From Candidatus Saccharimonadota bacterium (GTDB lineage Bacteria; Patescibacteriota; Saccharimonadia; Saccharimonadales; JAXHMH01): a stretch of DNA of 64,000 bases. Under the pieces are notes generated by a model. The model made no database searches. It was not told where the DNA came from and saw nothing but the letters and a program-made list of their open reading frames with translations. Positions 3,241-54,544 of the stretch are shown in pieces. The position numbers and the translations under genes were made by a program. The DNA lies in the NCBI GenBank assembly GCA_034521515.1, contig JAXHMH010000002.1, positions 512,444-576,443 on the forward strand, given 5' to 3'. The number at the start of each line of letters is the position of its first letter. Position 1 is the stretch's first letter.

Positions 3241-3309
3241 GCACATTTTGTTTTTAGAAAAAGCAGAAGAGCTTTGACCTCAAACTGTTTAACAGATATA
3301 ATTACACCA

Positions 3310-6300
3310 ATGAAGTGGTTGTGGCTACGGAGGGTAGCAGGTCAGGTCGGGGTGGTGGCGCTATTGCTCGGAATAGCGTTTTTTGCGGCCACACAATCAG
3401 CAGCTGACGGCGCCTGGATGGACGACGACTGGCAACACAGAAAGCTCATCACGATCGATGAGACAATGGTCTCTGGTGGGAGTGATTTAGCGAACTTTCC
3501 TATTTTGGTATCAGTTACCGACACGGACCTACGGAGTACCGATTTTGGCGGCGGGGTGGCAAATGTAGATGCCAACGACATTGTATTTACGCTCGATGAC
3601 GGCACAACACTGCTTGCGTATGAACTAGAGAGTTATAACGACCAAACTGGGGATTTGAATGCGTGGGTACGACTGCCATCCCTGTCTGCGACCATCGAGA
3701 CAGAATTGTACATCTACTACGGTAATGAGCTGGCAACGAACCAACAAGATCCGGACAATGTCTGGCCAGCCGATTATGTTATGGTGCAGCACCTTCAAGA
3801 GCAATCAGGATCTGGGAATTTTTTGGCAGATTCAACCAGCGTCGGGAACGACGGTATCCCTTTGGGTACGACACCAGCATTTAACTCCAGTTCCAGGATT
3901 AACGGAGGCTGGGGGTATGGTGGCAATAACCAGCAACGCATCGAAATAGCTGATAATACCAGTTTGCAGTTAGCGGATTCATTTACAGCAGAAGCATGGG
4001 CGCGGTTTACAAGTTGGACGACGCCAGACCATAACCCTGTTCTATGGAAAGGGTCGCAAATCGGGTGGGGAAATAATTATAACTTTAGAATCGCAGTTAG
4101 TAACGGAGCCCCTACTTGGGGGGTGACATGTAGTGCTGAGGGTTGGTTTGCTGGGGGTACGGTATCCTTGAATACCTGGAACCACTACGTTTTGACGTTT
4201 GACGGTACAACCGTCCGAGGTTTCTTAAATGGCACAGAAGTTGGTTCGACAACCGACTGTAGCGGACAATCGCTTAATACTATGGCGGGGAACCCGGTGC
4301 GTAGTGGTTTTGGGTACCGTAACAGTCCAACCCAGGAAACGCACATGGCGGGTGATGTTGATGAGCTACGGATAGCCAACCAAGCCCAGAGCTCAGCATG
4401 GATTCAGACTGGGTATAACAACATGAATGCCCCGGAGACGTACATTGGTTTTGGCCCCGAAGAAGACCGGGCGCCCGCCGTCCCCCAAACCCCCACTCTC
4501 CACGACTCAGGTGGCTCCACCCAACTGGCCTTTAACAACAGCCGTATAGATACTCAAACGCCTACCTTCCGTGTCTCAACTCCTGCAGATGACAACTACA
4601 ACCAAATCCAGTTAGAACTCAACACCGAATCTGACTTCTCTGGCACCAGCTACACCCAAACAACCACCGGTGCCTACATCACCAACGACCAATACAATAT
4701 CCCTGCCAATAGTCTTTCTCCAAGTCTCCCCACTACCGATAATGCAACCTACTACGTCCGTGTCCGAGCCTCCGCCGACGGAGGCACGACCTGGGGCAAC
4801 TGGTCTACAGACAACGCCTGCTGTGACCCATGGAGCTTTACCTACAGCAGTACAGAGGATGAGATGAGTTGGTTCCAGCAAACAGACGTCCAGTTTGACA
4901 CAAGCACGCTAGATGCTGCAGTTACGAATGATGGCGTGCTATTAGCGGCAAGCTCGTTTTCGGCAACTGGCGGGACCATTACTACCATTGGAGATAGCCG
5001 GTATCACGTTTTTACAAGCGATGGCAATTTGACGGTGACTGGGGATTCGTCAACAGGTGAGGTGCTAGTAGTCGGTGGTGGCGGTGGTGGCGCTGGCTCA
5101 GCAGGAAACGCTGGTCGTGGCGGTGGTGGCGCTGGTGGACTAGTCCATGATGAAAACTTTTCACTCAATAGCGGGAGTTATTCAGTTACCGTAGGCACCG
5201 GTGGAGCTGGCGGTGCAGCTTCTGGAGCAGACGGCAGCCAAGGGAGTAACTCATCATTTGATAGTCTTGTCGGAATAGGCGGCGGTGGCGGTGCTGGTTT
5301 GAATACCAACGGGGGAGCTGGTGGGTCTGGTGGTGGTGCCGGAGTGAACAATCTTACTCTGTCAGGTGGCGCTGCGCAGCAGCCAGGTTCAAGCTCCGGT
5401 GGATTTGGTAGTCAGGGCGGCACAGCGGATATATATGCGGTGGGTGCTGGTGGCGGCGGTGGCGGTGGTGCCGGTGCAGCAGGCGGTGCGGGCACGGCAA
5501 GTGCTGGCGGTTCGGGCGGTGCAGGCTTAGAGTTTTCTCAATTTTCTGCGGTTGGTGGATCACCTGCTGGATGGTTTGCTGGTGGTGGCGGCGCATCAGC
5601 TGGTACAACCGGGGGGCCGGGCGGTACTGGCGGTGGTGGTACAGGGTCAACTGATACCTCTTCAGCACAGAGTGGCGTAACAAGTACAGGTGGAGGTGGT
5701 GGCGGTTCGCAGGGTACCGGTGGCGGTGGCGGTGATGGTGGCTCTGGCGTCGTCATTGTTCGTTATGATGTATCGTTTGCTCCGACTGGCAGTGTTACTT
5801 CAGAACCAATCAATTATTCAAGCGTTCCAAGTGCTCTCACGTGGGACGAAATGGTCTGGGAGTCTGATGAGTCTAATGGGTCAATAGAAATGCGGTTGCT
5901 GTACTCAGATTCCGGTACATGTGATGCACTGGTTTCCGACACAGATCTAAGCGGAAACAGCACTGGTTTCACGACTTCGCCAGTCGACATAACGGGGCTT
6001 GATAGCAGTACGTATCAACAGCTTTGCCTCGAGGCTACGCTCACAGAAGACGGTGGATCGCCCGTGCTGCAAAGCTGGGGCATACGCTGGGAGAGGTTCT
6101 TGCCCGCCGTCCCCCAAACCCCCACTCTCCACGACTCAGGTGGCTCCACCCAACTGGCCTTTAACAACAGCCGTATAGATACTCAAACGCCTACCTTCCG
6201 TGTCTCAACTCCTGCAGATGACAACTACAACCAAATCCAGTTAGAACTCAACACCGAATCTGACTTCTCTGGCACCAGCTACACCCAAACAACCACCGGT

Positions 6301-9285
6301 GCCTACATCACCAACGACCAATACAATATCCCTGCCAATAGTCTTTCTCCAAGTCTCCCCACTACCGATAATGCAACCTACTACGTCCGTGTCCGAGCCT
6401 CCGCCGACGGAGGCACGACCTGGGGCAACTGGTCTACAGACAACGCCTGCTGTGACCCATGGAGCTTTACCTACAGCAGTACAGAGGATGAGATGAGTTG
6501 GTATCAAGCAGATGGAGCGCAATTTGCCACAAATGAGCTCACTGATACGGTTGTTGACGGTGATGATGTGGTGTTGGGCGCGGTCGGATCAGGGATTACT
6601 AACCCGACACAATTGACGACATATACGTCGACAACCAATCAGGCATCTGCAACAACCGCGAGTGTCTCGCCGGCCGGCAACGCCTTGATAGTTGTGCTGG
6701 TGGGCACCGGCAGTACTACAACACACACGCATAATGCCGTGACGAGCACCTTTGGCACAGTGGGCGGGTTTACGCAGCGCACCACACAACTCGGTACGAG
6801 CAATACCTTTTACAGGTATTCAATTTATACTGCTGTGACAACGGCAAGTCCAGGCTCTGGTACCATTACCGTTAATTACAGCGCTAATACCCCAAACCAA
6901 GTGCATTATGTATTGCAAGTGGCGGATGGTTTTGACACATCCGACCCGGTAATTCAGACGATTACAGCGACAACCGCAGCAACCACGCTGTCGATGGGCT
7001 TTCCTGCTACTCCGCAAACAAGCTCGCTCGTAATTGGCGGTATTGCCACGAGGCGAGGGACAGATATTGCAGGCACAAGTGGCTATACAACGTTTGCAAA
7101 TATTGATACCGGTGGGGGCACAAATGCCCGCGCGCAATCCCAATATCGTGTCGGTGACGCCGGAATAGGACTAAACTGGACAGGAGACGGGACCCTAGAA
7201 AATATGGTTGCTGGAGCGGTAGAGATACGTGCTGAAACAGCAGATGATGCAACGATTATGTCATCAGAAATCTTTTATGACTACGCACGGAGCCCGCAGA
7301 CTTGGGGTGAGGCGTCGTTTACGTCAAATGAAACAAATGGTGATATCAAATTACGCCTGTATCATAGTTTATCCACAGCCTGCGATACACAGATTCCGAA
7401 TGGAGATCTAGCAGGAAACACCGTTGGCTTTGACGCAACAGATGGATCAATTGACTTATCAGGGCTTAACACGACAACATATGACCAAATTTGTATACAG
7501 GCTACATTGTCAGATGTCGCAGGTACGCCATATTTACAGAGCTGGTCAGTTTCGTGGGAGACAGAACCCAACTTTGCGCCGAATGAACCGTGGGCTTTGG
7601 CTCAAACCAAGACCGATACCTCGCCTTTAGCGGTTGGTGATTGGACGAATGAAAGCTCAGTACGCTTTACAGCCAGTGCGACTGATTTTGATGCAACAGG
7701 TGACTTAGAGCTCTGTGTTGAAGCTCGCCCAATCGGTATCAGCTTCTTGGATGTGCAGAATGACTGTGGTGAACCCGTGGAGTACCAAGCTCCGATTTAC
7801 GAGTGTGACCCAACCGGGAATGCGCTATTTGAAAAGTATGATGGAGTAGCCGGCACAGACATTGCATCACTCTATGCAGCTCCGGCTTTCCCGAATAGTC
7901 CTAGTTCAAATCAAACGATAAGTGGCGGTTCGCTGGAGGGTCCAGTAAATATTGATGATACGTATGGTGGTCGTCTGTCGGCCTTGATTTGCCCACCACA
8001 AGATGGTGATTACACATTTTGGTTGTCGGCCGACGATAATGCTGAGCTGCGCATAAGTACAGATGTGAACCCGGCAAATGTCACAACTATAGCTTCCGTA
8101 CCTGGCTGGTCTGGCGTAGATGAGTGGATAATGTACCCTGAGCAGCAATCTGCACTCGTCACGCTTGAAGCAGACCAGTATTACTACATTGAAGCCAATT
8201 ACAATGAAGGAGCTGGTGGTGACCATGTTCAGATTGGGTGGACATTGCCCGACACGACAGTTGACCGACCGATTTCCGGTACGTACTATTCATTGCCTTC
8301 CGAAGAAGAAGAGCGAACGCTCATTTCTGGCGAGATTCCAACATTAACCGCAGCGCTTAACCTGGCGGATGCGGATAGCTATCATTGGCAAGCTCGGGTG
8401 CGTGACCAAGGCGGCCTCTACTCGAGCTGGGTAAACTTTGGTAGTAACCCAGAAGAGGAGCGTGACTTTGGGATAGACACAACTGCACCAACTAGTGGGA
8501 GTGTATACGATGGCGATGACCTTGGAGAGGACATGATGTTTAATGATGGGTCACTAGATACACTGTCGGCGAACTGGGAAGGCTTTGACTTTGATGTATC
8601 AGGAACGGTTGGCTATGAATATTCAATCGGTACAACGCCGGGTGGTACAGACACAGTTGATTGGACGGATGTCGGTACGGATACCTCGTTTACTATCAGC
8701 AGTCTAGAGCTCCAGACAAACCACGTTTACTACACGAACATTCGGGCTACAGATGTTGCTGGCAATACAGCGGTAGTGAGTTCCGATGGTCAATATGTTT
8801 TACCGACGCTGAGTTTTAGTGTATCGACTTCAAACATTACATTTGAGAATCTTGGTGCCAGTAATGACCGCACAGATTCTGAGGATGTCACGCTTACGAC
8901 CTCCACGAATGCCTACGCTGGCTATACGGTTCGGGCTCGAGCAACAGGGCAACTCAACGCAAATGGGTCGCATGATCTTCCATGGTTTAGCGCAGGGTCG
9001 TATGCTTCTCCGGTTGCCTGGGAGGATAGCAGTACCTGGGGGTACGGCTACACCTCAAGCGATACCAATGTGCAAGGTTCCAATAAGTTTGGCGATGGAA
9101 CATTGTTTGCTCCATTTACCACGCTTGCGCCTGGCGATATTGTGGCTGATAACACCGACAACACAACTGGTGTATCTATACAGGACGAGGAGTTTACAAT
9201 CACGCACCGGGTGGTTGCCCCAGAAGACCAGCCAGCTGGTTTCTACTCCACGACAATTTATTACACAGTGACAGCCGATTACTAA
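3310..9285 (+). CDS. Giant secreted multi-domain surface protein (DUF2341-like, LamG-like, Gly-rich, PA14-like and WxL-like C-terminal modules)
   Basis: Uninterrupted ORF; the track starts at TTG 3274, and ATG 3310 gives MKWLWL plus a TM/signal segment. N-terminal WQHRKLITID...LYIYYGN resembles DUF2341, and WNHYVLTFDG...DVDELRIAN resembles LamG. There is a long GGxGG region. GDYTFWLSADDNAELRIS...YYYIEANYNEGAGGDHVQIGW resembles PA14. The C-terminus is homologous to that of ORF 10393..11412. Confidence 0.85.
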   Translation: MKWLWLRRVAGQVGVVALLLGIAFFAATQSAADGAWMDDDWQHRKLITIDETMVSGGSDLANFPILVSVTDTDLRSTDFGGGVANVDANDIVFTLDDGTTLLAYELESYNDQTGDLNAWVRLPSLSATIETELYIYYGNELATNQQDPDNVWPADYVMVQHLQEQSGSGNFLADSTSVGNDGIPLGTTPAFNSSSRINGGWGYGGNNQQRIEIADNTSLQLADSFTAEAWARFTSWTTPDHNPVLWKGSQIGWGNNYNFRIAVSNGAPTWGVTCSAEGWFAGGTVSLNTWNHYVLTFDGTTVRGFLNGTEVGSTTDCSGQSLNTMAGNPVRSGFGYRNSPTQETHMAGDVDELRIANQAQSSAWIQTGYNNMNAPETYIGFGPEEDRAPAVPQTPTLHDSGGSTQLAFNNSRIDTQTPTFRVSTPADDNYNQIQLELNTESDFSGTSYTQTTTGAYITNDQYNIPANSLSPSLPTTDNATYYVRVRASADGGTTWGNWSTDNACCDPWSFTYSSTEDEMSWFQQTDVQFDTSTLDAAVTNDGVLLAASSFSATGGTITTIGDSRYHVFTSDGNLTVTGDSSTGEVLVVGGGGGGAGSAGNAGRGGGGAGGLVHDENFSLNSGSYSVTVGTGGAGGAASGADGSQGSNSSFDSLVGIGGGGGAGLNTNGGAGGSGGGAGVNNLTLSGGAAQQPGSSSGGFGSQGGTADIYAVGAGGGGGGGAGAAGGAGTASAGGSGGAGLEFSQFSAVGGSPAGWFAGGGGASAGTTGGPGGTGGGGTGSTDTSSAQSGVTSTGGGGGGSQGTGGGGGDGGSGVVIVRYDVSFAPTGSVTSEPINYSSVPSALTWDEMVWESDESNGSIEMRLLYSDSGTCDALVSDTDLSGNSTGFTTSPVDITGLDSSTYQQLCLEATLTEDGGSPVLQSWGIRWERFLPAVPQTPTLHDSGGSTQLAFNNSRIDTQTPTFRVSTPADDNYNQIQLELNTESDFSGTSYTQTTTGAYITNDQYNIPANSLSPSLPTTDNATYYVRVRASADGGTTWGNWSTDNACCDPWSFTYSSTEDEMSWYQADGAQFATNELTDTVVDGDDVVLGAVGSGITNPTQLTTYTSTTNQASATTASVSPAGNALIVVLVGTGSTTTHTHNAVTSTFGTVGGFTQRTTQLGTSNTFYRYSIYTAVTTASPGSGTITVNYSANTPNQVHYVLQVADGFDTSDPVIQTITATTAATTLSMGFPATPQTSSLVIGGIATRRGTDIAGTSGYTTFANIDTGGGTNARAQSQYRVGDAGIGLNWTGDGTLENMVAGAVEIRAETADDATIMSSEIFYDYARSPQTWGEASFTSNETNGDIKLRLYHSLSTACDTQIPNGDLAGNTVGFDATDGSIDLSGLNTTTYDQICIQATLSDVAGTPYLQSWSVSWETEPNFAPNEPWALAQTKTDTSPLAVGDWTNESSVRFTASATDFDATGDLELCVEARPIGISFLDVQNDCGEPVEYQAPIYECDPTGNALFEKYDGVAGTDIASLYAAPAFPNSPSSNQTISGGSLEGPVNIDDTYGGRLSALICPPQDGDYTFWLSADDNAELRISTDVNPANVTTIASVPGWSGVDEWIMYPEQQSALVTLEADQYYYIEANYNEGAGGDHVQIGWTLPDTTVDRPISGTYYSLPSEEEERTLISGEIPTLTAALNLADADSYHWQARVRDQGGLYSSWVNFGSNPEEERDFGIDTTAPTSGSVYDGDDLGEDMMFNDGSLDTLSANWEGFDFDVSGTVGYEYSIGTTPGGTDTVDWTDVGTDTSFTISSLELQTNHVYYTNIRATDVAGNTAVVSSDGQYVLPTLSFSVSTSNITFENLGASNDRTDSEDVTLTTSTNAYAGYTVRARATGQLNANGSHDLPWFSAGSYASPVAWEDSSTWGYGYTSSDTNVQGSNKFGDGTLFAPFTTLAPGDIVADNTDNTTGVSIQDEEFTITHRVVAPEDQPAGFYSTTIYYTVTADY
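4473..4873 (+). repeat. Copy 1 of a 401-bp perfect direct repeat inside the giant CDS
   Basis: Base-for-base identical to 6102..6502 by my reading. Offset is 1629 bp (543 codons, in frame). Encodes APAVPQTPTLHDSGG...STEDEMSW. Confidence 0.9.
6102..6502 (+). repeat. Copy 2 of the 401-bp perfect direct repeat inside the giant CDS
   Basis: Identical to 4473..4873. The domains flanking each copy are homologous but diverged. Confidence 0.9.
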
Positions 9286-13974: not shown

Positions 13975-14155
13975 CGGGGTGTGGCCCCGCCTGTCTGGCC
14001 GAGCCCCCTGTCTTTCTGGCAAGAAGGCCAGGCAGGACGGACAGGGCAGTTGGCTAGCGTGAGAAGTGCCAGTGGCACTTCGCAAGGGAATCCACTCTTG
14101 CAAACTTGTTTGCTAAGATGTGGTGACGGGGTCGCAGAATGTGACCGCGGTTTGG
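13975..14155 (+). pseudogene. Interrupted 5'-half copy of tRNA-Pro
   Basis: cggggtgtggc, gcagttggctagcg and cgcggtttgg match tRNA-Pro positions 1 to about 36, in order. They are separated by inserts of 60 nt (13986..14045) and 86 nt (14060..14145). There is no matching 3' half. Confidence 0.75.
13986..14045 (+). repeat. 60-nt hairpin insertion element, copy A
   Basis: About 90 percent identical to 28161..28220 by my reading. Removing it restores a contiguous tRNA-Pro sequence (gtggc|gcag). Confidence 0.8.
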
Positions 14156-14205
14156 CCAAACCGGTTAGGACAGAACGTTAACAATTAACAAATAGATACA
14201 CCTAT

Positions 14206-14282: not shown

Positions 14283-14384
14283 ATAAAAAAAGGTTACCTT
14301 GTGTAGCCTTTTTTTATTGGTTAGAGTCAACGGCTCGGTTCTTCGACACAGATTTGCACCAGCAAATATGCAAGTCGAAGGTTC
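14268..14384 (+). repeat. 117-bp direct repeat, copy 1 (tRNA-Pro 3' end, bidirectional terminator and hairpin)
   Basis: Matches 14633..14749 with one mismatch. Contains the 14-nt inverted repeat ccaataaaaaaagg...cctttttttattgg. Confidence 0.85.
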
Positions 14385-14476
14385 GGTGTAGCGCAGCGTA
14401 GGCGAGAAAGCGCTTTAGCATTTTCTCGGCAAGCAAGCGGAAAAGGACGTAGTCCGCTGTCCTTTCACCCCGACCA
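14374..14476 (+). pseudogene. tRNA-Pro T-arm/acceptor fragment split by a 74-nt insert
   Basis: gtcgaaggttcg, then an insert (14386..14459), then tcctttcaccccgacca. The break falls right after TTCG of the T loop. Confidence 0.7.
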
Positions 14477-14564
14477 TGAAAAAGGAGTCTCTTCATTGAG
14501 ACTCTTTTTTCATGCTTGGCTGAAAAGATTTGGTTCTTCGACTCGACAGCTTCAGCTGGCGATA

Positions 14565-14647
14565 GTCGAATGGTTCGGTCGTTAGTCACAGACCCCAGCG
14601 TTAGCGGGCGTCTGGATTAACGTGCGTTGTCTCTTTCACCCCGACCA
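14565..14647 (+). pseudogene. Second, diverged tRNA-Pro T-arm/acceptor fragment split by a 54-nt insert
   Basis: gtcgaatggttcg, then an insert (14578..14631), then tctttcaccccgacca. Confidence 0.65.
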
Positions 14648-14749
14648 ATAAAAAAAGGTTACCTTGTGTAGCCTTTTTTTATTGGTTAGAGTCAACGGCT
14701 CGGTTCTTCGACGCAGATTTGCACCAGCAAATATGCAAGTCGAAGGTTC
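14633..14749 (+). repeat. 117-bp direct repeat, copy 2
   Basis: See 14268..14384. Offset is 365 bp. Confidence 0.85.
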
Positions 14750-14837
14750 AAGCCTGCCCCGCACCAGAATTGGCGCGCGGGTTCTTTCACTGAGCTTAAC
14801 TTAGCCTTTAGTTATAGCGCTTGCTACAATAAGGCGT

Positions 14838-19015: not shown

Positions 19016-19390
19016 GCGGGTGTCGTATAATGGCTAATATACCTGCCTTCCAAGCAGGCGATGCGAGTTCGCCCCGGTCATACGACGGGGCGCCCTATCG
19101 GATGATAGGGCGATTCTCAAGAAGCAACAATTAACAATCTACGGGTGTCGTATAATGGCTAATATACCTGCCTTCCAAGCAGGCGATGCGAGTTCGCCCC
19201 GGTCATACGACGGGGCGCCCTATCGGATGATAGGGCGATTCTCAAGAAGCAACAATTAACAATCTACGGGTGTCGTATAATGGCTAATATACCTGCCTTC
19301 CAAGCAGGCGATGCGAGTTCGCCCCGGTCATACGACGGGGCGCCCTATCGGATGATAGGGCGATTCTCAAGAAGCAACAATTAACAATCT
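19016..19390 (+). repeat. Three tandem 125-bp units, each a truncated tRNA-Gly copy with a 41-nt T-loop insert
   Basis: Units start at 19016, 19141 and 19266 and are identical except for the first base. Each holds tRNA-Gly nt 1-56, a two-hairpin insert, attctc, and a 22-nt spacer. Confidence 0.9.
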
Positions 19391-19465
19391 GCGGGTGTCG
19401 TATAATGGCTAATATACCTGCCTTCCAAGCAGGCGATGCGAGTTCGATTCTCGCCACCCGCACCA
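19391..19465 (+). tRNA. tRNA-Gly (anticodon TCC), CCA encoded
   Basis: Acceptor GCGGGTG/CACCCGC, anticodon loop CTTCCAA, T arm GCGAG-TTCGATT-CTCGC, 75 nt. Confidence 0.9.
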
Positions 19466-19498: not shown

Positions 19499-19762
19499 AT
19501 GTTCTACGTATACTTCCTCAAGCTTAATAATGGCCAGATATGCACCGGCTACACCGAAAACCTAAAAAGACGCAAAAGTGAACATGATTTGGGCAAGGTT
19601 GCTTCAACTATGTCCCGACTTCCTTGTTGTTTAGTAGGATACGAAGCGTATGCTTTAAAGACAGATGCGATGCGACGAGAGAAGTTTCTTAAAACAACAG
19701 AAGGTAAAAAACTTTTTAAACAACAATATCGTGATATAATCACCTCTGTTGTGCCTCGGTAG
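19499..19762 (+). CDS. Small GIY-YIG nuclease-family protein
   Basis: ATG 19499 gives MFYVYFLKLNNGQICTGYTENLKRRKSEH (GIY-YIG core). The last 10 nt overlap the next tRNA. Confidence 0.8.
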   Translation: MFYVYFLKLNNGQICTGYTENLKRRKSEHDLGKVASTMSRLPCCLVGYEAYALKTDAMRREKFLKTTEGKKLFKQQYRDIITSVVPR

Positions 19763-19834: not shown

Positions 19835-20341
19835 ATGAAACAGATTAGTGTTAATGAGTTATATCAAGAAGGGTACAGTTATACTCTCGATGAACCAGCT
19901 GGGAAGAATTTTCATCCTGATTTTGAACCGGAGCTGACACCGAAAGAGATGCTGCAACTTGGTGTTTTTGGTGGAGATTACTTTCAGGCTATTCCAAACG
20001 AATTCCCAGAAGACTGGTTTGAGGGGGCTAAGTTATCCGAAATTGGCACGGCTGATAAAAACCTGAATTATTTTAAGGTAAACGCCAGCCAGTCACTCAA
20101 GGAGTGGCAAAGAAAGGGTTGGATATATTTTGAAGATCCTAAAGGTTGGTTTTTGTGGTACTGCCGCTACTATCGTGGCAGGCGAATACCAGAGGAGGAT
20201 GAGCGGCAAATCAAGCGCTGGCGAGCGATGAATCGGCATAAATCACAGGTAGAAAAGTTTTGTGAACCAGGCGATATGACATGTCGCCCACGCCAGCGGC
20301 AGGCGTTGCTACACTGGGCATACGATTCCCGCAAAATCTAA
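19835..20341 (+). CDS. Conserved hypothetical protein (168 aa)
   Basis: Clean ORF with a W/R-rich C-terminal half (GWFLWYCRYYRGRR...QIKRWRAMNRH). I cannot name a family. Confidence 0.6.
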   Translation: MKQISVNELYQEGYSYTLDEPAGKNFHPDFEPELTPKEMLQLGVFGGDYFQAIPNEFPEDWFEGAKLSEIGTADKNLNYFKVNASQSLKEWQRKGWIYFEDPKGWFLWYCRYYRGRRIPEEDERQIKRWRAMNRHKSQVEKFCEPGDMTCRPRQRQALLHWAYDSRKI

Positions 20342-20376
20342 AGAATAGGTTTAGCCCAACAAAACCCAAGGTAATT

Positions 20377-20961
20377 ATGAATAGTCAGAGCAGCGGGTTC
20401 GGAGATACACCAGAGACCGTCCAATTGACCATCTACAGGGATGGCTGCTACCATTGTTGTATGTCAACACGTCCTTGCCAGGTTTGTAACAAAAAATTTT
20501 ACGCCAAACCAAGTCATGTTCAGAAGGGTTGGGGTAAATTTTGTTCAAAAGCCTGCCAGTATACAGGGCAGAAGACGGGGCAGACTTATCCTTGCCACCA
20601 ATGTAAACAGCAGGTATACAGGACTGTCAAAGACAGGAGGCGCTCTAAGAGCGGAAAATTCTTTTGCGGTAGGTCCTGTCAAACAGTATGGAGGAACAGT
20701 ATGCTATACGCTGGCAAGCGTCACTCCAACTGGAACGGTGGCAAGGCATCGTATAGGAGCATCTTACTTAAGACAGGATTACCTAGAGTTTGCACTAGAT
20801 GCCGGTTAACTGATACACGGATTTTAGCAGTACATCATAAGGACAGAAACCGTAACAATAATGACGCATCGAATTTGATATGGCTTTGTCATAATTGCCA
20901 TTATTTAGTTCATCATTATGTTAATGAAGGAGCTGGGTTTTTGGCTCCTCGGACTATATAG
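20377..20961 (+). CDS. HNH endonuclease with Cys-rich N-terminal region
   Basis: LAVHHKDRNRNNNDASNLIWLCHNCHYLVHH is an HNH motif, and several CxxC pairs lie upstream. The start is uncertain (20377 or a later Met). Confidence 0.8.
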   Translation: MNSQSSGFGDTPETVQLTIYRDGCYHCCMSTRPCQVCNKKFYAKPSHVQKGWGKFCSKACQYTGQKTGQTYPCHQCKQQVYRTVKDRRRSKSGKFFCGRSCQTVWRNSMLYAGKRHSNWNGGKASYRSILLKTGLPRVCTRCRLTDTRILAVHHKDRNRNNNDASNLIWLCHNCHYLVHHYVNEGAGFLAPRTI

Positions 20962-27578: not shown

Positions 27579-27905
27579 ATGGCATATAAGGACATTGAGG
27601 ATAGCAGGGCAGCCATCAGACGCCATTACTATGAAAACAAAGAGAAATACTTAGCAAAGAACAAACTTAGACGCCAAAAAATAAAAGAGTATGTGAATAA
27701 AATTAAGGCTTCCACTCCATGTGCAGATTGTAAGAATTCCTACCCATATTACGTTATGGATTTTGACCACTTGAGAGACAAGACGACTATAATTAACAAC
27801 TTTGTGAGAGCCTCGAATTTATCTGGCTTAAAAAAAGAGATAAAAAAGTGCGAAATTGTTTGCGCAAACTGCCATAGAATGAGAACATTTAATCGTATTG
27901 AGTAA
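27579..27905 (+). CDS. Small HNH endonuclease
   Basis: CADCKNSYPYYVMDFDHLRDK...CEIVCANCHRMRT. Confidence 0.75.
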   Translation: MAYKDIEDSRAAIRRHYYENKEKYLAKNKLRRQKIKEYVNKIKASTPCADCKNSYPYYVMDFDHLRDKTTIINNFVRASNLSGLKKEIKKCEIVCANCHRMRTFNRIE

Positions 27906-28030: not shown

Positions 28031-28087
28031 TTTCTGCTCGATGCTCGAGCCAGGGTTTGAACCGTCAAGCGAGCTTATGCGAGCGGA

Positions 28088-28229
28088 GGTTCGGCGTATG
28101 TGAGTCCGCTGGTCAGCGGACGAACGAAGAAGCCCATCTTTGATGGGCGCTATCCTGCCGCCCGCCTATCTGACCGAGTCTCCTGTCTTTCTGACAAGAA
28201 GGCCAGGCAGGACGGACAGGGGTGTACCA
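28088..28229 (+). pseudogene. tRNA-Arg 3' fragment split by two inserts
   Basis: ggttcg, a 58-nt insert (28094..28151), atcctgccg, a 60-nt insert (28161..28220), then ggtgtacca. Removing the inserts gives the T-loop-to-CCA sequence of the upstream tRNA-Arg. Confidence 0.75.
28161..28220 (+). repeat. 60-nt hairpin insertion element, copy B
   Basis: Homologous to 13986..14045. Excision restores cctgccg|ggtgtacca exactly. Confidence 0.8.
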
Positions 28230-35164: not shown

Positions 35165-35245
35165 GGTAGTAGACTTTCATTTACTCCACACTAGTGCGGA
35201 GTAGGCTTTTGCCTGGCAAAAGCTAATGAAAGCTCACTACCGGGC
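35165..35245. mobile_element. 81-nt MITE-like palindromic element abutting the 5' end of tRNA-Lys
   Basis: Roughly 19-bp terminal inverted repeats (ggtagtagactttcatt / aatgaaagctcactacc) enclose two inner hairpins. Flanked by the direct repeat tggccc (35159..35164 and 35246..35251). Confidence 0.5.
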
Positions 35246-35360
35246 TGGCCCTTGTATTCTACAGGCGTAGACATGATGTAACGTATCACAAAATGTAACA
35301 AGGAAACTTTAGCAGGTTACCTCTGTTATTGCAAGTGGAATGTTGGTATACTATGGACTA

Positions 35361-50836: not shown

Positions 50837-51270
50837 AACTAAACCATGTGCCGCGTGAGCGGCCTGCTTTCTGGGCTAGTCCGGAAACACCGCCCTCACG
50901 CTCTTGGCGCAGTACTTTGTCAGAAGCTCCAGTACTCGAGCACCGTATGTATATACGGTTTACTCCGTGCTTCGCTTCTTCCGTGTACTGCATCCAAGTA
51001 CAAGCTTTAGTTTCCAGACTTATTTGCTCAGGTAGGATGCGCAGTGCATTCCTCCTGCCTGCAACGTAGCAAATCCTGGGGTGAGGTAGTCTGCAATCAG
51101 ATTATGGAGCCTCAAGATTTGCTATCGTTGTGGATAAACACTAGCGATATTGTCAAAAATATGCTAGTCTTGCATTGAAGATTAGGAGCACGACTGACCG
51201 CTCAAAACGAACTCTCAATAAAGCACCCCGGCCTAAAAACCGGGGTATTTTATTTCCACCCCACCCCTTT

Positions 51271-51307
51271 TGCAAGGTTAGACCTTGCAACAAGGTCTAA
51301 CCTTGCA
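51271..51307. repeat. REP-like hairpin flanking the transposase gene (left)
   Basis: tgcaaggttagaccttg caa caaggtctaaccttgca: 17-bp stem, 3-nt loop. Confidence 0.8.
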
Positions 51308-51337
51308 GTTTCCGGGTTGTAGTTTCGTTATTTAGGA

Positions 51338-51967
51338 TTAAGTATCTGCCAGGATTCCTTTTAGGAGCTTCAAATCCTTACGTTGTGCCTTGTACTCACT
51401 TACGAATTTCCTATAGTCTTTGGTGCTGTTGTCGTGAAGTTCCATGATCTTGTCCGGCCTAAGCCATTCTGCCGTACGTGTCTTCATATAGTACGGAAAA
51501 CTGGAATAGTCATAGGTTTCGTAGTCGACATTGATGTCTTGAGGATTCAGGTGTATGTACCGGCTAATATGTAATAAATAGTCATCCTTATCTATAAGAC
51601 TTGCTTTGTAGGTGCCCTGGAATAAGCTGCCAACTCGCTTGTGGCGCTTATTGAAATACATGCTATAAGCTGTCATTAGTCGGTGCATGAGTTCTGGCAG
51701 GCCTTTATCTTCCTGATTGTAGACAAGGAGATGGAAGTGATTTGGCATCAGGCAGAAAGCCAATAACTCCACTTTGTTTAACAGATGTGCAAAATCTCTG
51801 CCATACTTATCTTGAAGTGGTTCGTTAGACAGGTGGCGCTTAAAAAGGTGTAAAAAATAAAAGTAGTCATCTGAGTCTAGAAAAACGTCAGATTTATTTA
51901 CACCACGATTATAAACGTGGTAGTAGTTATCGCTAGCTAACTGTTTTACTACATGACGACTCGGCAT
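51338..51967 (-). CDS. IS200/RAYT-type Y1 (HUH) transposase
   Basis: YYHVYNRGVNK, the HUH motif PNHFHLLV and SRYIHLNP. ATG 51967 preferred; the track start at 52021 runs through the REP hairpin. Confidence 0.8.
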   Translation of the reverse strand: MPSRHVVKQLASDNYYHVYNRGVNKSDVFLDSDDYFYFLHLFKRHLSNEPLQDKYGRDFAHLLNKVELLAFCLMPNHFHLLVYNQEDKGLPELMHRLMTAYSMYFNKRHKRVGSLFQGTYKASLIDKDDYLLHISRYIHLNPQDINVDYETYDYSSFPYYMKTRTAEWLRPDKIMELHDNSTKDYRKFVSEYKAQRKDLKLLKGILADT

Positions 51968-51971
51968 AATA

Positions 51972-52006
51972 ACAAGGTCTAACCTTGCAACAAGGTTAGA
52001 CCTTGT
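51972..52006. repeat. REP-like hairpin flanking the transposase gene (right)
   Basis: acaaggtctaaccttg caa caaggttagaccttgt: the same arms as the left copy, in swapped order. Confidence 0.8.
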
Positions 52007-52065
52007 TGTGGACGGTGTCAAGGTGTTGTGATATATTGACCCGAGTAAATAAGCTTTATTGACGA

Positions 52066-52140
52066 GGCCTCATCGTCTAACGGTTAGGACATCAGGTTTT
52101 CATCCTGGAAATCGGGGTTCGATTCCCCGTGAGGTCACCA
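52066..52140 (+). tRNA. tRNA-Glu (anticodon TTC), CCA encoded
   Basis: Acceptor GGCCTCA/TGAGGTC, anticodon loop TTTTCAT, T arm CGGGG-TTCGATT-CCCCG, 75 nt. Confidence 0.9.
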
Positions 52141-52179
52141 AAGAAAAAGCCCCATGCAGTTTGTTTGGGGCTTTTTCTT
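52141..52179 (+). terminator. Rho-independent terminator after tRNA-Glu
   Basis: 14-bp stem aagaaaaagcccca / tggggctttttctt. Confidence 0.75.
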
Positions 52180-52212
52180 TGGTGGTTTCCCGCAGGGAAA
52201 CCGAACCCCGAG

Positions 52213-52319
52213 GGGGTTCGCATAACGTCAAATGTATCGTTTGACGTTATTTAGCCGATGGTATAACTAGAAGCAAAGCGGATAGTTATACCATCAAAGC
52301 GTTGGAGCCGTGAGGTCAC
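52213..52319 (+). pseudogene. tRNA-Glu T-arm/acceptor fragment split after TTCG by an insert of about 87 nt
   Basis: ggggttcg, then an insert with two hairpins of 11-12 bp, then ccgtgaggtcac. Confidence 0.65.
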
Positions 52320-52368
52320 AGTTTTTGTTTGGTGGTCCGCCGACTGGCGGACGAATCAAACCCCAGGC

Positions 52369-52438
52369 GGTTCGCTAATCCCCCGCCAACTTGTTGCCAA
52401 ACGGGCGGATTATATTTCCATATTCCCGGTGAGGTCAC
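52369..52438 (+). pseudogene. Second tRNA-Glu T-arm/acceptor fragment split after TTCG by a 47-nt insert
   Basis: ggttcg, then an insert, then attcccggtgaggtcac. Confidence 0.65.
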
Positions 52439-52527
52439 AAATGCCATAAATTAGAAAAAGCCCCCTTAGCTCACCCTGTAGCACCACCTGATTACAGACC
52501 CATGGTTATGATAAACTTATTTATAGT

Positions 52528-53107: not shown

Positions 53108-54544
53108 ATGAAAACAACCTTTAAAGTGCCAAACGTTCCGCTGGCAAAATTCAAGCGGACAAAGATTATAGCTACGGTTGGTCCAGCCACCAACAGTTAC
53201 GAGGCTATTTATGAGCTTATTACAGCTGGCGCTAATGGTATTAGGCTTAACTTTAGTCACGGCACGCACGAAGAACGCGAAAAGCAGATCAAGTGGATAC
53301 GCAAAGCTGCCGCGAAATACGGCAAGCCAATAGCCATTATCCAAGATTTACAGGGCCCCAAAGTGCGTCTTGGCGACTTTGAAGGTATTGTGAATGTCGC
53401 CGAGAGCCAGAGCTTTAGCTTTAAATACAAGGCAGACTACGACGAGTCCGGTGTGCTGCCAACTCAGTACGACTTAAGCAAAAAGGTTAAGCGAGGCGAA
53501 CGGCTTTATTTATATGACGGCAAGATCCGCATGACCATAACCAGCGTGCGTGATGGTGTCGTGCATGCTCGTGCTGAAAACGACGGCATTTTGATCAAAA
53601 GAAAAGGCATCAACCTGCCAGACACTGATTTTGGCGGCGATATTCTTACCAAGAAAGACCGGCAAGACATTGTTTTTGGATCGACAAACGACATAGATTA
53701 TGTGGCGCTGAGCTTTGTGCAACATGCAGGTGATATCAAAAAACTCCGTACTTTACTGCGCGGGCTGGGTAGCTCGGCGCGTATTATAGCCAAGATTGAA
53801 ACCAAAGCTGCAGTAGATAATCTGGAGCCAATAGTCAAAGAAGCTGATGCGGTCATGGTGGCGCGCGGCGACTTAGCAATCGAAACACTGGCTGAGTCGG
53901 TTCCAATTGTGCAACGCCAAATCATTGGACTGGGCGCGCAATATTCCACACCCACTATAGTCGCGACGCAAATGCTAGCGACCATGACTGAATTACCTGA
54001 ACCAACCAGGGCAGAAGTATCGGATGTAGCGACAGCGGTTATTGTATCGACAGATGCAGTTATGTTGAGTGACGAAACCGCCAATGGCCAGTACCCGATA
54101 CAGTCAGTCAAAGTCATGAAGCGAGTAATTCTTCATACCCAAGAGAATATGCCGCTCAAAGTAACTTTTCCAGAACATGAAGAGAATCGTTCGCAAACAG
54201 CTGCGATCTCAAAAGCTATTATTAAACTTGCTAATACGCTAGAAGCCAAAGCGATTGTGGCAGAAACAAAATCTGGCGCAACAGCACTGCAAATTAGCGC
54301 TCGACGTCCGGATCAACCAATTATTGCCGCCACACCTGACATTAGGGTGGCACAGCAGCTGGCAGTTGTGTATGGGATTAAAAGTTATGTACGGCCGGAT
54401 GATCCACGACAGGCCACCAAGCTAACAAACTGGCTGCACCAAAACAAAGTATTGAGCAAGGGTGATATGGTTATTACGGTTTCTGGCAAGCACCCTGGTG
54501 TGGTCGGGTCGACGGACACCATTAAAGTACGTGTTTTAGAATAA
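53108..54544 (+). CDS. pyk: Pyruvate kinase
   Basis: RTKIIATVGPA, NFSHG, MVARGDLAIE and TQMLATM. Confidence 0.95.
   Translation: MKTTFKVPNVPLAKFKRTKIIATVGPATNSYEAIYELITAGANGIRLNFSHGTHEEREKQIKWIRKAAAKYGKPIAIIQDLQGPKVRLGDFEGIVNVAESQSFSFKYKADYDESGVLPTQYDLSKKVKRGERLYLYDGKIRMTITSVRDGVVHARAENDGILIKRKGINLPDTDFGGDILTKKDRQDIVFGSTNDIDYVALSFVQHAGDIKKLRTLLRGLGSSARIIAKIETKAAVDNLEPIVKEADAVMVARGDLAIETLAESVPIVQRQIIGLGAQYSTPTIVATQMLATMTELPEPTRAEVSDVATAVIVSTDAVMLSDETANGQYPIQSVKVMKRVILHTQENMPLKVTFPEHEENRSQTAAISKAIIKLANTLEAKAIVAETKSGATALQISARRPDQPIIAATPDIRVAQQLAVVYGIKSYVRPDDPRQATKLTNWLHQNKVLSKGDMVITVSGKHPGVVGSTDTIKVRVLE

What the first reader, a model, noticed from the sequence alone, without database searches (positions are those of the whole stretch)
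52141..52440. Two T-arm/acceptor relics of tRNA-Glu next to a RAYT transposase
After tRNA-Glu and its terminator come two diverged units. Each consists of tttggtgg, a hairpin, ..ggttcg, an insert, then (attccc)gtgaggtcac. The inserts are about 87 nt (two perfect stems of 11-12 bp) and 47 nt.

The breakpoint after TTCG is the same as at the Pro, Gly and Arg loci. The locus sits 60 nt from the right-hand REP-like hairpin of an HUH/Y1 transposase (51338..51967). Y1 enzymes act on hairpin DNA, so the transposase is a candidate mobiliser for hairpin inserts. That link is inference only.
Basis: partly seen in the sequence, partly recalled or inferred. Interest (0 to 1): 0.55.

Follow-up and report, generated by a model that had tools for sequence, protein, structure and literature searches.

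The report
tRNA-Glu tail copies carrying structured inserts
Behind the tRNA-Glu gene of this Saccharibacteria genome sit two partial copies of the gene's tail, each split in its T-loop by a conserved folded insert; related bacteria without the neighbouring transposase have the same arrangement, so the transposase is a bystander and the inserts belong to a wider family I could not find described.

Summary
After tRNA-Glu (52066-52140) and its terminator come two units (52180-52319 and 52320-52438). Each has a T-stem 5' strand plus TTCG, an insert (89 nt, 47 nt), then the tRNA's acceptor 3' strand. "tttggtgg" is only the far arm of the terminator palindrome. The sequence before GGTTCG is an inverted copy of the intact T-arm.

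The transposase link is not supported. Its flanking hairpins share nothing with the inserts beyond chance. Thirteen loci in relatives carry partial tRNA-Glu copies and have no Y1 gene. L007 keeps the same flanks without the transposase block.

The inserts are conserved modules. Unit 1's recurs after tRNA-Glu in L073, with 8 compensatory pairs. Unit 2's recurs in three or four other loci, one of them a tRNA-Arg relic. A third module, M1 (window 14058-14146), occurs in at least 120 metagenome contigs, almost always inside partial tRNA copies beside intact genes. It covaries strongly, is strand-specific, and matches no Rfam family.

Best reading (about 0.5): structured modules that move between tRNA loci and survive only in redundant partial tRNA copies made by hairpin-driven duplication. 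Main rival: functional small RNAs in tRNA leaders and trailers. The mechanism is inferred, not shown.

The parts
52066..52140 (+). Intact tRNA-Glu (UUC), the source of the copied segments.
   Evidence: ARAGORN; Rfam tRNA, 61.9 bits.
52136..52184 (.). Extended two-way terminator palindrome.
   Evidence: Read directly from the sequence. A chance Rfam alignment shows the long inverted repeat spanning 52113-52211.
52185..52211 (+). Inverted, diverged copy of the intact T-arm (the cap). It contains the small hairpin tttccc-gca-gggaaa (52186-52200) and ccgaacccc (52201-52209), which pairs with the next segment.
   Evidence: minus-strand match CGGGGTTCGGT at 52200-52210. The equivalent hairpin in relatives carries compensating changes: cttttc-gta-gaaaag in L005 and gtttat-gaa-gtaaac in L002.
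52212..52220 (+). Unit 1: direct copy of the T-stem 5' strand plus TTCG.
52221..52309 (+). Unit 1 insert, the 'type I module'. It has two hairpins (52222-52250 and 52257-52295), a conserved loop AGAAGCAAAGCGGAT, and linkers TTTAG and GCGTTGGA.
   Evidence: Homologous to the relic after tRNA-Glu in L073 (2793-2931). Eight base pairs changed on both sides while keeping the pairing, and the loop and linkers are identical.
52310..52319 (+). Unit 1: copy of the acceptor 3' strand (GTGAGGTCAC). The T-stem 3' strand is lost.
52320..52335 (+). Remnant of a decayed terminator between the units (AGTTTTTGTTTGGTGG).
   Evidence: Compared with 52167-52185. Relics in relatives keep a full terminator after ...CACCA.
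52336..52365 (+). Unit 2 cap: hairpin tccgcc-gact-ggcgga (52336-52351) plus a remnant of the inverted T-arm, cgaatcaaacccc.
   Evidence: minus-strand match at 52355-52365.
52366..52374 (+). Unit 2: T-stem 5' strand plus TTCG (GGCGGTTCG).
52375..52421 (+). Unit 2 insert, the 'type II module' (CTAATCCCCCG - variable hairpin - CGGGCGGATTATA).
   Evidence: Homologues in L025 (second Glu relic), L021 (decayed Glu relic) and L141 (tRNA-Arg relic), with a looser variant in L018 that was not in the alignment. Five pairs show compensatory change in the 4-sequence alignment.
52422..52438 (+). Unit 2: T-loop 3' part, T-stem 3' strand and acceptor 3' strand (ATTCCCGGTGAGGTCAC).
   Evidence: 16 of 17 bases identical to 52122-52138.
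51262..52010 (-). Neighbour judged unrelated. A Y1 (IS200/RAYT-like) transposase gene at 51338-51967, flanked by inverted REP-like hairpin pairs. It is a lineage-specific insertion between the upstream terminator and the promoter-like site of tRNA-Glu.
13975..14164 (+). Same class. A 5' fragment of tRNA-Pro upstream of the intact gene, interrupted by the 60-nt hairpin element X (13986-14045) and by module M1 (14058-14146). It is truncated in the anticodon loop and capped by ccaaaccg.
   Evidence: covariance-model hit of 94 bits.
14283..14797 (+). Same class. Three 3' relics of tRNA-Pro. Each has a cap, then gtcgaaggttcg, an insert, and a copy of the tRNA's T-stem 3' strand. The first two continue to a full ...tcctttcaccccgacca end followed by a terminator. 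The third is decayed (tctttcactgagctt) and has neither.
19017..19390 (+). Same class. Three 125-nt tandem copies of tRNA-Gly positions 1-57, a 41-nt two-hairpin insert and ATTCTC, upstream of the intact gene.
   Evidence: 99% identity.
28040..28229 (+). Same class. A 3' relic of tRNA-Arg (tcg). TTCG is at 28090-28093, followed by a 58-nt insert. A second copy of element X lies at 28161-28220, inside the acceptor 3' strand.
35165..35255 (-). Probably the same class. A roughly 77-nt Y-shaped hairpin element abuts position +1 of tRNA-Lys and is preceded by GGGCCA, the first 6 nt of the tRNA.

Best explanation
The two units are cassettes of a type common in Saccharibacteria. Each is a redundant partial copy of the neighbouring tRNA gene whose T-loop tip is occupied by a conserved, strand-specific folded module (type I in unit 1, type II in unit 2).

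Shown:
- The arms derive from the tRNA.
- The modules are homologous across genomes and keep their pairing through compensating changes.
- At least type II, M1 and the 60-nt element X occur in more than one tRNA context, so they move on an evolutionary time scale.
- No Y1 transposase is needed.

Inferred:
- The partial copies arise when replication or break repair switches template at the hairpin-forming T-arm (GGTTCGAAyCC is nearly its own reverse complement) and at the terminator palindrome. This would leave the inverted 'cap' at each junction.
- Modules are copied from one tRNA locus to another using the conserved loop halves as short homology.
- A module in the only functional gene would be lethal, so only copies that sit in a duplicate beside an intact gene persist.
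- The units are probably transcribed as tRNA trailer by read-through. I do not assume a benefit to the host.
For: - The architecture recurs after tRNA-Glu, or upstream of the pyruvate kinase gene, in L002, L004, L005, L007-L011, L018, L021, L023 and L025. The 3' end always matches the local tRNA.
- The first unit after tRNA-Glu carries different modules in different lineages: type I in the window and L073, M1 in L004, L007, L040 and L114, type II in L018, and GGTTCGGGCGCCAACGAAG in L008-L011. That points to turnover.
- Type I shows 8 compensatory pairs and type II shows 5.
- M1: 83 distinct copies give 96.1% paired cells, against 77.4% in shuffles and 28-45% with slid partners. There are 514 double-change cells against 144 in shuffles. 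A G.U pair is kept in 80 of 83 copies. The plus strand scores 94 bits and the minus strand 15.7.
- M1 census of 136 hits: 38 are 5' fragments before the same intact tRNA, 22 are 3' relics after it, and 25 more have a tRNA nearby. None sits in a sole, otherwise complete tRNA.
- M1 copies lie partly inside one another in L046 and L069, and L047, L126, L132 and L149 look similar. Element X is inserted precisely, with no target duplication, at 13986 and 28161.
- The caps are reverse complements of an uninterrupted T-loop.
- There is no integrase next to the window's tRNA loci. An empty site for the RAYT exists.
Against: - No filled-versus-empty pair in near-identical genomes was found, so the boundaries of a mobile unit and the act of moving are not shown.
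- No enzyme is identified.
- Conserved loop sequences (15 nt identical between the window and L073), the conserved G.U pair, and survival in streamlined genomes despite flanking direct repeats of 20-57 nt (which should delete readily) all fit selection for a function better than passive copying does.
- M1 copies within one locus are only about 75-85% alike (L136), so there has been no recent burst.
- Template switching does not by itself explain why the structure is kept.
Confidence: 0.5

Rival explanations
1. The modules are small RNAs or cis-acting RNA elements that serve the host. They are embedded in tRNA leaders and trailers. The tRNA-derived arms supply co-transcription, processing signals, or pairing with the tRNA. 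This reading is compatible with occasional transfer between loci.
For: - Strong covariation and a conserved G.U pair on the tRNA-sense strand only.
- Identical loop and linker sequences in type I despite many stem substitutions.
- The type II core is conserved across genomes whose pyruvate kinases are only 64-67% identical to the window's.
- The cassettes persist in genomes under 1 Mb. They take up about 1.7 kb of this 64 kb window.
- Many relics keep their own terminator.
Against: - Different modules occupy the same position in different lineages, and some relatives have none after tRNA-Glu (L006, L012-L014, L020).
- The 5'-fragment and 3'-relic classes are mirror images. That is easier to explain at the DNA level.
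- Pairing between the 5' cap region and the acceptor 3' strand is not kept (L050, L123), so there is no consistent tRNA-like scaffold.
- Overlapping M1 copies occur.
- There are no expression data.
Confidence: 0.27
2. One reading: the adjacent Y1/RAYT transposase, or another Y1 enzyme acting in trans, inserts the hairpin elements 3' of TTCG in single-stranded DNA, in the manner of IS200/IS605.
For: - A Y1 gene with flanking inverted hairpins lies 56 nt upstream of tRNA-Glu.
- The inserts have no target duplication, sit after a fixed tetranucleotide at several window loci, are built of hairpins, and are strand-specific.
- Y1 homologues occur within about 1 kb of M1 relics in L057 and L041.
Against: - No motif is shared between the REP-like hairpins and the inserts.
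- The REP-like hairpins are not dispersed in the window.
- Thirteen relic-bearing Glu loci of relatives have no Y1 gene, and an empty site exists.
- Only 2 Y1 genes occur in about 0.97 Mb of M1-bearing loci, which is no more than background.
- The inserts at TTCG belong to unrelated sequence families, whereas a Y1 enzyme reads specific hairpins. M1 breaks the T-loop at position 54/55, not after TTCG.
- The NCBIfam RAYT model scores 46 bits, below its cut-off of 80.
Confidence: 0.04
3. The units are attachment-site relics (attR-like) left by tyrosine-integrase elements that crossed over in the T-loop. Internal deletion then shrank the elements to 100-180 nt.
For: - Displaced 3' fragments begin in the T-loop and are identical to the gene's end. 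This is the classic mark of integration into tRNA genes.
- The position where identity starts differs by module family (55/56 for M1, 58 for types I and II), as would be expected for different elements.
Against: - No integrase lies near any of the window's tRNA loci.
- The T-stem 5' strand is also copied and sits before the insert.
- The mirror-image 5'-fragment class is unexpected for such elements.
- The modules show single-strand structure with G.U pairs rather than double-stranded protein-binding arms.
- The M1 pattern is absent from 2.9 million viral contigs.
Confidence: 0.07
4. The units are neutral decay products of a simple tandem duplication of the tRNA 3' end plus terminator, as at the E. 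coli tyrT locus. The inserts are random filler.
For: Tandem units each end in the tRNA 3' end, with terminator remnants between them. The Gly units are 99% identical, which points to recent unequal crossing-over.
Against: The inserts are conserved across distant genomes with compensatory changes. The same modules occur at other tRNA types. The break point is the same at four loci.
Confidence: 0.04

Closest known systems
E. coli tyrT locus: 178-bp repeats downstream of tRNA-Tyr (source of rtT RNA). From my own knowledge, not tested here.
   Same: Tandem units downstream of a tRNA gene, each ending in a copy of the tRNA's 3' terminal segment. Probably amplified by unequal recombination.
   Different: No T-stem 5' half, no module at the T-loop tip, no inverted T-arm cap, and no family of modules shared between tRNA types and genomes. 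No Rfam hit was obtained here.
REP/BIME elements and their RAYT (Y1) transposases
   Same: Short extragenic palindromes near terminators. A Y1 gene flanked by inverted hairpins is physically present.
   Different: The inserts share no motif with those hairpins. The hairpins are not dispersed. Cassettes occur without any Y1 gene. The modules are 40-100 nt multi-hairpin structures embedded in tRNA-derived sequence.
tRNA-gene fragments left by integrative elements that cross over in the T-loop. From my own knowledge (integrase site preference in tRNA genes).
   Same: A displaced 3' fragment identical to the gene's end and starting in the T-loop.
   Different: The spacing is 100-180 nt instead of kilobases. 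There is no integrase. The 5' half of the T-arm is also present. A mirror-image 5'-fragment class exists. The modules have single-strand structure.
Rickettsia palindromic elements and other small palindromic repeats that insert into genes for structured RNAs. From my own knowledge.
   Same: Small, non-coding, hairpin-forming elements that land in loops of RNA genes, have no transposase of their own, and occur in many copies.
   Different: Here they are found only in redundant partial tRNA copies, never in the working gene. They come with a partial duplication and an inverted cap.
Archaeal non-canonical tRNA introns, split and permuted tRNA genes, and Euglena group III introns and twintrons. 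From my own knowledge.
   Same: Insertions in T-, D- and anticodon loops. M1 is about 90 nt, begins GUGAG and ends AC, and its copies can overlap one another, much as small introns sit inside other introns.
   Different: The exons are incomplete and an intact gene lies next door. Removing M1 never restores a credible sole tRNA. No splicing motif was identified.

Membership tests
RAYT/REP system (as mobiliser of the inserts) | Y1 HUH transposase fold with HUH and catalytic Tyr motifs | tested here: met
   Pfam Y1_Tnp, E=1.4e-11. The motifs HFH and SRYIHLNP are visible in the translation. The NCBIfam RAYT equivalog scores only 46 bits against a cut-off of 80.
RAYT/REP system (as mobiliser of the inserts) | Gene flanked by inverted REP hairpins | tested here: met
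   The hairpins CAAGGTTAGACCTTG and CAAGGTCTAACCTTG occur in pairs at 51265-51310 and 51968-52010.
RAYT/REP system (as mobiliser of the inserts) | The same REP sequence dispersed through the genome | tested here: inconclusive
   Only the 4 flanking copies occur in 64 kb. The rest of the 706 kb contig could not be read.
RAYT/REP system (as mobiliser of the inserts) | Mobilised elements share the hairpin or cleavage motif with the REPs flanking the gene | tested here: not met
   The longest common string is 7-8 nt, against a shuffle mean of 6.97 and maximum of 10.
RAYT/REP system (as mobiliser of the inserts) | Elements and enzyme occur together across genomes | tested here: not met
   No Y1 homologue in 13 cassette-bearing tRNA-Glu loci. 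An empty site exists in L007.
IS200/IS605-type miniature elements (PATE) | Insertion 3' of a fixed 4-5 nt target with no target duplication | tested here: inconclusive
   TTCG precedes the inserts at the window's Glu, Pro, Gly and Arg loci, with no duplication. But TTCG is the tRNA T-loop itself. M1 breaks at 54/55, and element X follows GGC or CCG.
IS200/IS605-type miniature elements (PATE) | Copies share conserved left and right end hairpins | tested here: not met
   The window's inserts at TTCG belong to unrelated sequence families.
Integrative-element att relic | Displaced tRNA 3' fragment identical to the gene's end | tested here: met
Integrative-element att relic | Integrase gene and element body lying between the gene and the relic | tested here: not met
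   The gene-to-relic spacing is 40-180 nt, and no integrase domain occurs in the neighbouring ORFs.
tRNA intron (any kind) | Removing the insert yields a complete tRNA that is the locus's functional copy | tested here: not met
   The Glu units lack the whole 5' half. For M1, 171,602 trial deletions gave only weak pseudo-tRNAs or re-found the adjacent intact gene.
Any Rfam 15 family | Match at or near the gathering score | tested here: not met
   Only tRNA passes. All other hits are far below threshold.
tyrT-type tandem 3'-end repeats | Tandem units downstream of a tRNA gene, each containing its 3' terminal segment | tested here: met
   The additional features (cap, T-loop module) are not part of that known case.

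The most novel reading that the evidence does not exclude
Saccharibacteria carry a class of tRNA-templated cassettes that I could not find described. Conserved, strand-specific structured modules (M1, type I, type II and others) colonise tRNA loops and persist by being paired with a partial duplicate of the target gene. M1, a 90-nt three-hairpin RNA found in at least 120 contigs, would then be a new mobile RNA element, ribozyme, or tRNA-linked regulatory RNA with its own way of spreading.
Probability: 0.35. Interest if true: 0.85.

Novelty: new variant of a known kind. Interest (0 to 1): 0.6.

Why it matters
- Five of the seven tRNA genes in this 64 kb window are flanked by partial copies carrying folded inserts. 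These total about 1.7 kb, a sizeable share of non-coding DNA in a genome of roughly 0.7 Mb.
- If the modules are mobile, they represent a way for small elements to exploit the most conserved sequences in a cell without killing it.
- If the modules are functional, they are an unrecognised layer of tRNA-linked RNAs in a lineage whose biology is poorly known.
- Either way, M1 is a well-supported new structured motif.
- These fragments will confuse tRNA and genomic-island annotation, because tools that look for displaced tRNA fragments would report false islands.

Tried and rejected
- Protein coding. No ORF over 61 aa overlaps the units.
- Known RNA families. Rfam gathering and E-value searches of the Glu, Pro and L136 loci and of 20 related loci returned only tRNA.
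- tRNA intron, split or permuted tRNA. Brute-force removal of M1 never restored a credible sole tRNA.
- Acceptor/T-arm minihelix scaffold. The region 5' of the cap is not kept complementary to the acceptor 3' strand in L050 and L123.
- Element-borne replacement of the tRNA 3' end. The terminator next to the tRNA is the one conserved across genomes, including L012, which has no 3' relic. So the relic unit is the added DNA.
- Phage vehicle. The M1 pattern has 0 hits in the viral contig collection.
- Exact-protein look-up of the window's pyruvate kinase found nothing. The genome itself was not in the one-genome-per-species collection, so a genome-wide survey of Y1 genes, REPs and tRNA loci could not be done.
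- Seven literature searches found no description of this arrangement. An eighth, aimed at the E. coli tyrT repeats, failed on query syntax.
- A minus-strand promoter-like site (52438-52409, 10 of 12 matches) arises largely from the type II stem sequence and was not pursued.

Full report
**Setting.** The window is cellular DNA from a Candidatus Saccharibacteria genome assembled from a metagenome. Its pyruvate kinase (53108-54544) is 100% identical to a protein that NCBI lists under a Candidatus Saccharibacteria genome, on a 706 kb contig. The window also holds RNase Y, a Clp ATPase, a MurA-like enzyme and PcrA. It has seven tRNA genes.

**The observation.** After tRNA-Glu (52066-52140) comes a terminator whose palindrome reaches into the tRNA's CACCA end (52136-52184).

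Unit 1 (52180-52319) consists of:
- an inverted, slightly diverged copy of the intact T-arm (52185-52211);
- a direct copy of the T-stem 5' strand plus TTCG (52212-52220);
- an 89-nt insert with two perfect hairpins (52221-52309);
- GTGAGGTCAC.

Unit 2 (52320-52438) consists of:
- a terminator remnant;
- a hairpin and an inverted T-arm remnant;
- GGCGGTTCG;
- a 47-nt insert;
- ATTCCCGGTGAGGTCAC, which matches the tRNA at 16 of 17 bases.

Three exact copies of a 10-mer within 310 nt cannot be chance (P about 4e-8). Nothing in the units is coding. The shared break after TTCG at the Pro, Gly and Arg(tcg) loci is real.

**The transposase.** ORF 51338-51967 (-) is a Y1/IS200-like protein. It falls below the NCBIfam RAYT cut-off. 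It is flanked by inverted hairpin pairs that occur nowhere else in the window. Several results count against it as the mobiliser:
- Those hairpins share no more sequence with the units than shuffled sequence does.
- The order [quoted passage not shown] is kept in relatives.
- In L007 the spacer aligns with the window on the left of the transposase block (window 51129-51206). The REP-RAYT-REP segment (51262-52010) is simply absent there.
- Thirteen loci of relatives carry partial tRNA-Glu copies, and none encodes a Y1 homologue.

So the transposase is a lineage-specific insertion into the spacer. It is not the agent.

**The inserts are conserved modules.**
- Unit 1's insert is homologous to the relic after tRNA-Glu in L073. 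Both hairpins are kept through eight compensatory pair changes. The loop AGAAGCAAAGCGGAT and the linkers are identical.
- Unit 2's insert (CTAATCCCCCG - hairpin - CGGGCGGATTATA) recurs in L025, L021 and L141, with a looser variant in L018. The L141 copy lies inside a tRNA-Arg relic. Five pairs show compensatory change in the four-sequence alignment.
- In every genome the relic's 3' end matches that genome's own tRNA-Glu.
- Different lineages carry different modules in the first unit after tRNA-Glu, and some carry none.

**A wider family, M1.**
- Upstream of tRNA-Pro the window holds a 5' fragment of that tRNA (13975-14164). It is interrupted by a 60-nt hairpin element and by a roughly 90-nt module that I call M1.
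- The 60-nt element is also inserted precisely, with no target duplication, in the Arg relic at 92% identity.
- M1 is also the insert of the Glu relics in L004 and L007.
It hit none of the viral contigs.
- An alignment of 83 distinct copies gives three hairpins with 96% of cells paired. Shuffles give 77% and slid partners give 28-45%. There are 514 double-change cells against 144 in shuffles. One G.U pair is kept in 80 of 83 copies.
- The covariance model scores 94 bits on the tRNA-sense strand and 16 on the other.
- Caution: the invariant bases in hairpin 1 were imposed by the search pattern. Hairpins 2 and 3 are unbiased.
- No Rfam family matches M1.
- The taxonomy of most M1 contigs is unknown. 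Five hits are in Saccharibacteria loci, and L136 also looks like Saccharibacteria.

**Where M1 sits.** It lies in T-, D- or anticodon loops of partial tRNA copies of many amino-acid types. Of 136 hits:
- 38 are 5' fragments just upstream of the same intact tRNA;
- 22 are 3' relics just downstream of it;
- 25 more have a tRNA nearby;
- most of the rest lie near contig ends, and about 24 have no tRNA within roughly 300-400 nt.

Removing M1 never yields a credible sole tRNA. Copies can overlap one another. L136 shows everything at one tRNA-Leu gene: a 5' fragment with two M1 copies, the intact gene, and a 3' relic with a third M1 copy. The same 11-nt inverted T-loop "cap" sits at both junctions.

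**How it most likely works.**

Shown:
- The cassettes have tRNA-derived arms and conserved single-strand structured modules.
- The modules recur in different tRNA contexts.
- The cassettes do not depend on the Y1 gene.

Inferred:
- The partial copies arise by template switching or snap-back synthesis at the T-arm hairpin and the terminator palindrome. This would explain the inverted caps at junctions and the mirror-image 5' and 3' classes.
- Modules spread between tRNA loci by copying across the conserved loop halves.
- Only insertions that sit in a duplicate next to an intact gene survive.

Against a purely selfish reading stand the conserved loop sequences, the conserved G.U pair, and long persistence in very small genomes despite flanking direct repeats. 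A functional RNA role is therefore the main rival, at about 0.27. The two readings are not mutually exclusive.

Integrase relics are unlikely. No integrase lies nearby, the spacing is tiny, and the modules have single-strand structure. Neutral tyrT-like decay is contradicted by the cross-genome conservation.

**Verdict.** The tRNA origin of the units and the mobility of the inserts are supported. The RAYT link is not. The locus is one instance of a widespread arrangement that I found no description of in seven literature searches.

Noticed in passing
window 14058-14146 (covariance-model hit 14055-14152): Module M1 is a roughly 90-nt three-hairpin element inside a tRNA-Pro 5' fragment. The same motif occurs in at least 120 metagenome contigs, with strong covariation. 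It is strand-specific, matches no Rfam family, and has no hits in viral contigs.
   Followed up: yes
window 13986-14045 and 28161-28220: A 60-nt hairpin element (CCCGCCTGTCTGGCC...GGACGGACAGG) is present twice at 92% identity. It is inserted precisely and without target duplication, once in the D-stem of a tRNA-Pro fragment and once in the acceptor 3' strand of the tRNA-Arg relic.
   Followed up: partly
window 19017-19446: Three 125-nt tandem copies (99% identical) of tRNA-Gly positions 1-57, a 41-nt two-hairpin insert and ATTCTC lie directly upstream of the intact tRNA-Gly. They probably form part of its leader transcript.
   Followed up: partly
window 35165-35255 (minus strand): A roughly 77-nt Y-shaped hairpin element abuts position +1 of tRNA-Lys and is preceded by GGGCCA, a repeat of the tRNA's first six bases.
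   Followed up: partly
window 19508-19762, 20281-20961 and 27579-27905: Small nuclease-like ORFs sit next to tRNA genes. A GIY-YIG ORF (E=5e-7) lies between tRNA-Gly and tRNA-Arg(tct). A weak HNH match lies before tRNA-His. An ORF with an HNH-like CxxCH motif (seen by eye; no Pfam HNH hit) lies before tRNA-Arg(tcg). A nuclease that cuts tRNA genes could start the rearrangements, but this was not tested.
   Followed up: partly
window 14185-14196 and 19369-19380: The motif AACAATTAACAA lies 10-25 nt upstream of both tRNA-Pro and tRNA-Gly. It may be a shared promoter element.
   Followed up: no
window 14157-14176: The 11-mer CGGTTAGGACA, identical to part of the tRNA-Glu D-arm, lies within the tRNA-Pro upstream fragment region. 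This suggests mosaic fragments drawn from different tRNAs.
   Followed up: no
window 4473-4772 and 6102-6401: A perfect 300-nt direct repeat lies inside the 2003-aa glycine-rich, lectin-domain surface protein gene (3274-9285).
   Followed up: no
L012 5672-5830: The tRNA-Glu 5' fragment carrying M1 differs from the resident tRNA-Glu by compensated stem changes (ccggg/cccgg against ccagg/cctgg). It resembles the tRNA-Glu of other lineages. It is either a very old duplicate or horizontally acquired.
   Followed up: partly
window 52409-52438 (minus strand): A promoter-like site (GTGACC, 18-nt spacer, TATAAT; 10 of 12 matches) is formed by the acceptor relic and the type II module stem. It would drive antisense transcription through the units toward the two-way terminator.
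   Followed up: no
L008-L011, downstream of tRNA-Glu: Two further conserved segments occur in the tRNA-Glu relics of these loci. One is GGTTCGGGCGCCAACGAAGTCACC. The other is GCGCATCGACCAAAGGGAGAT, placed directly before ATTCCCCGTGAGG.
   Followed up: partly
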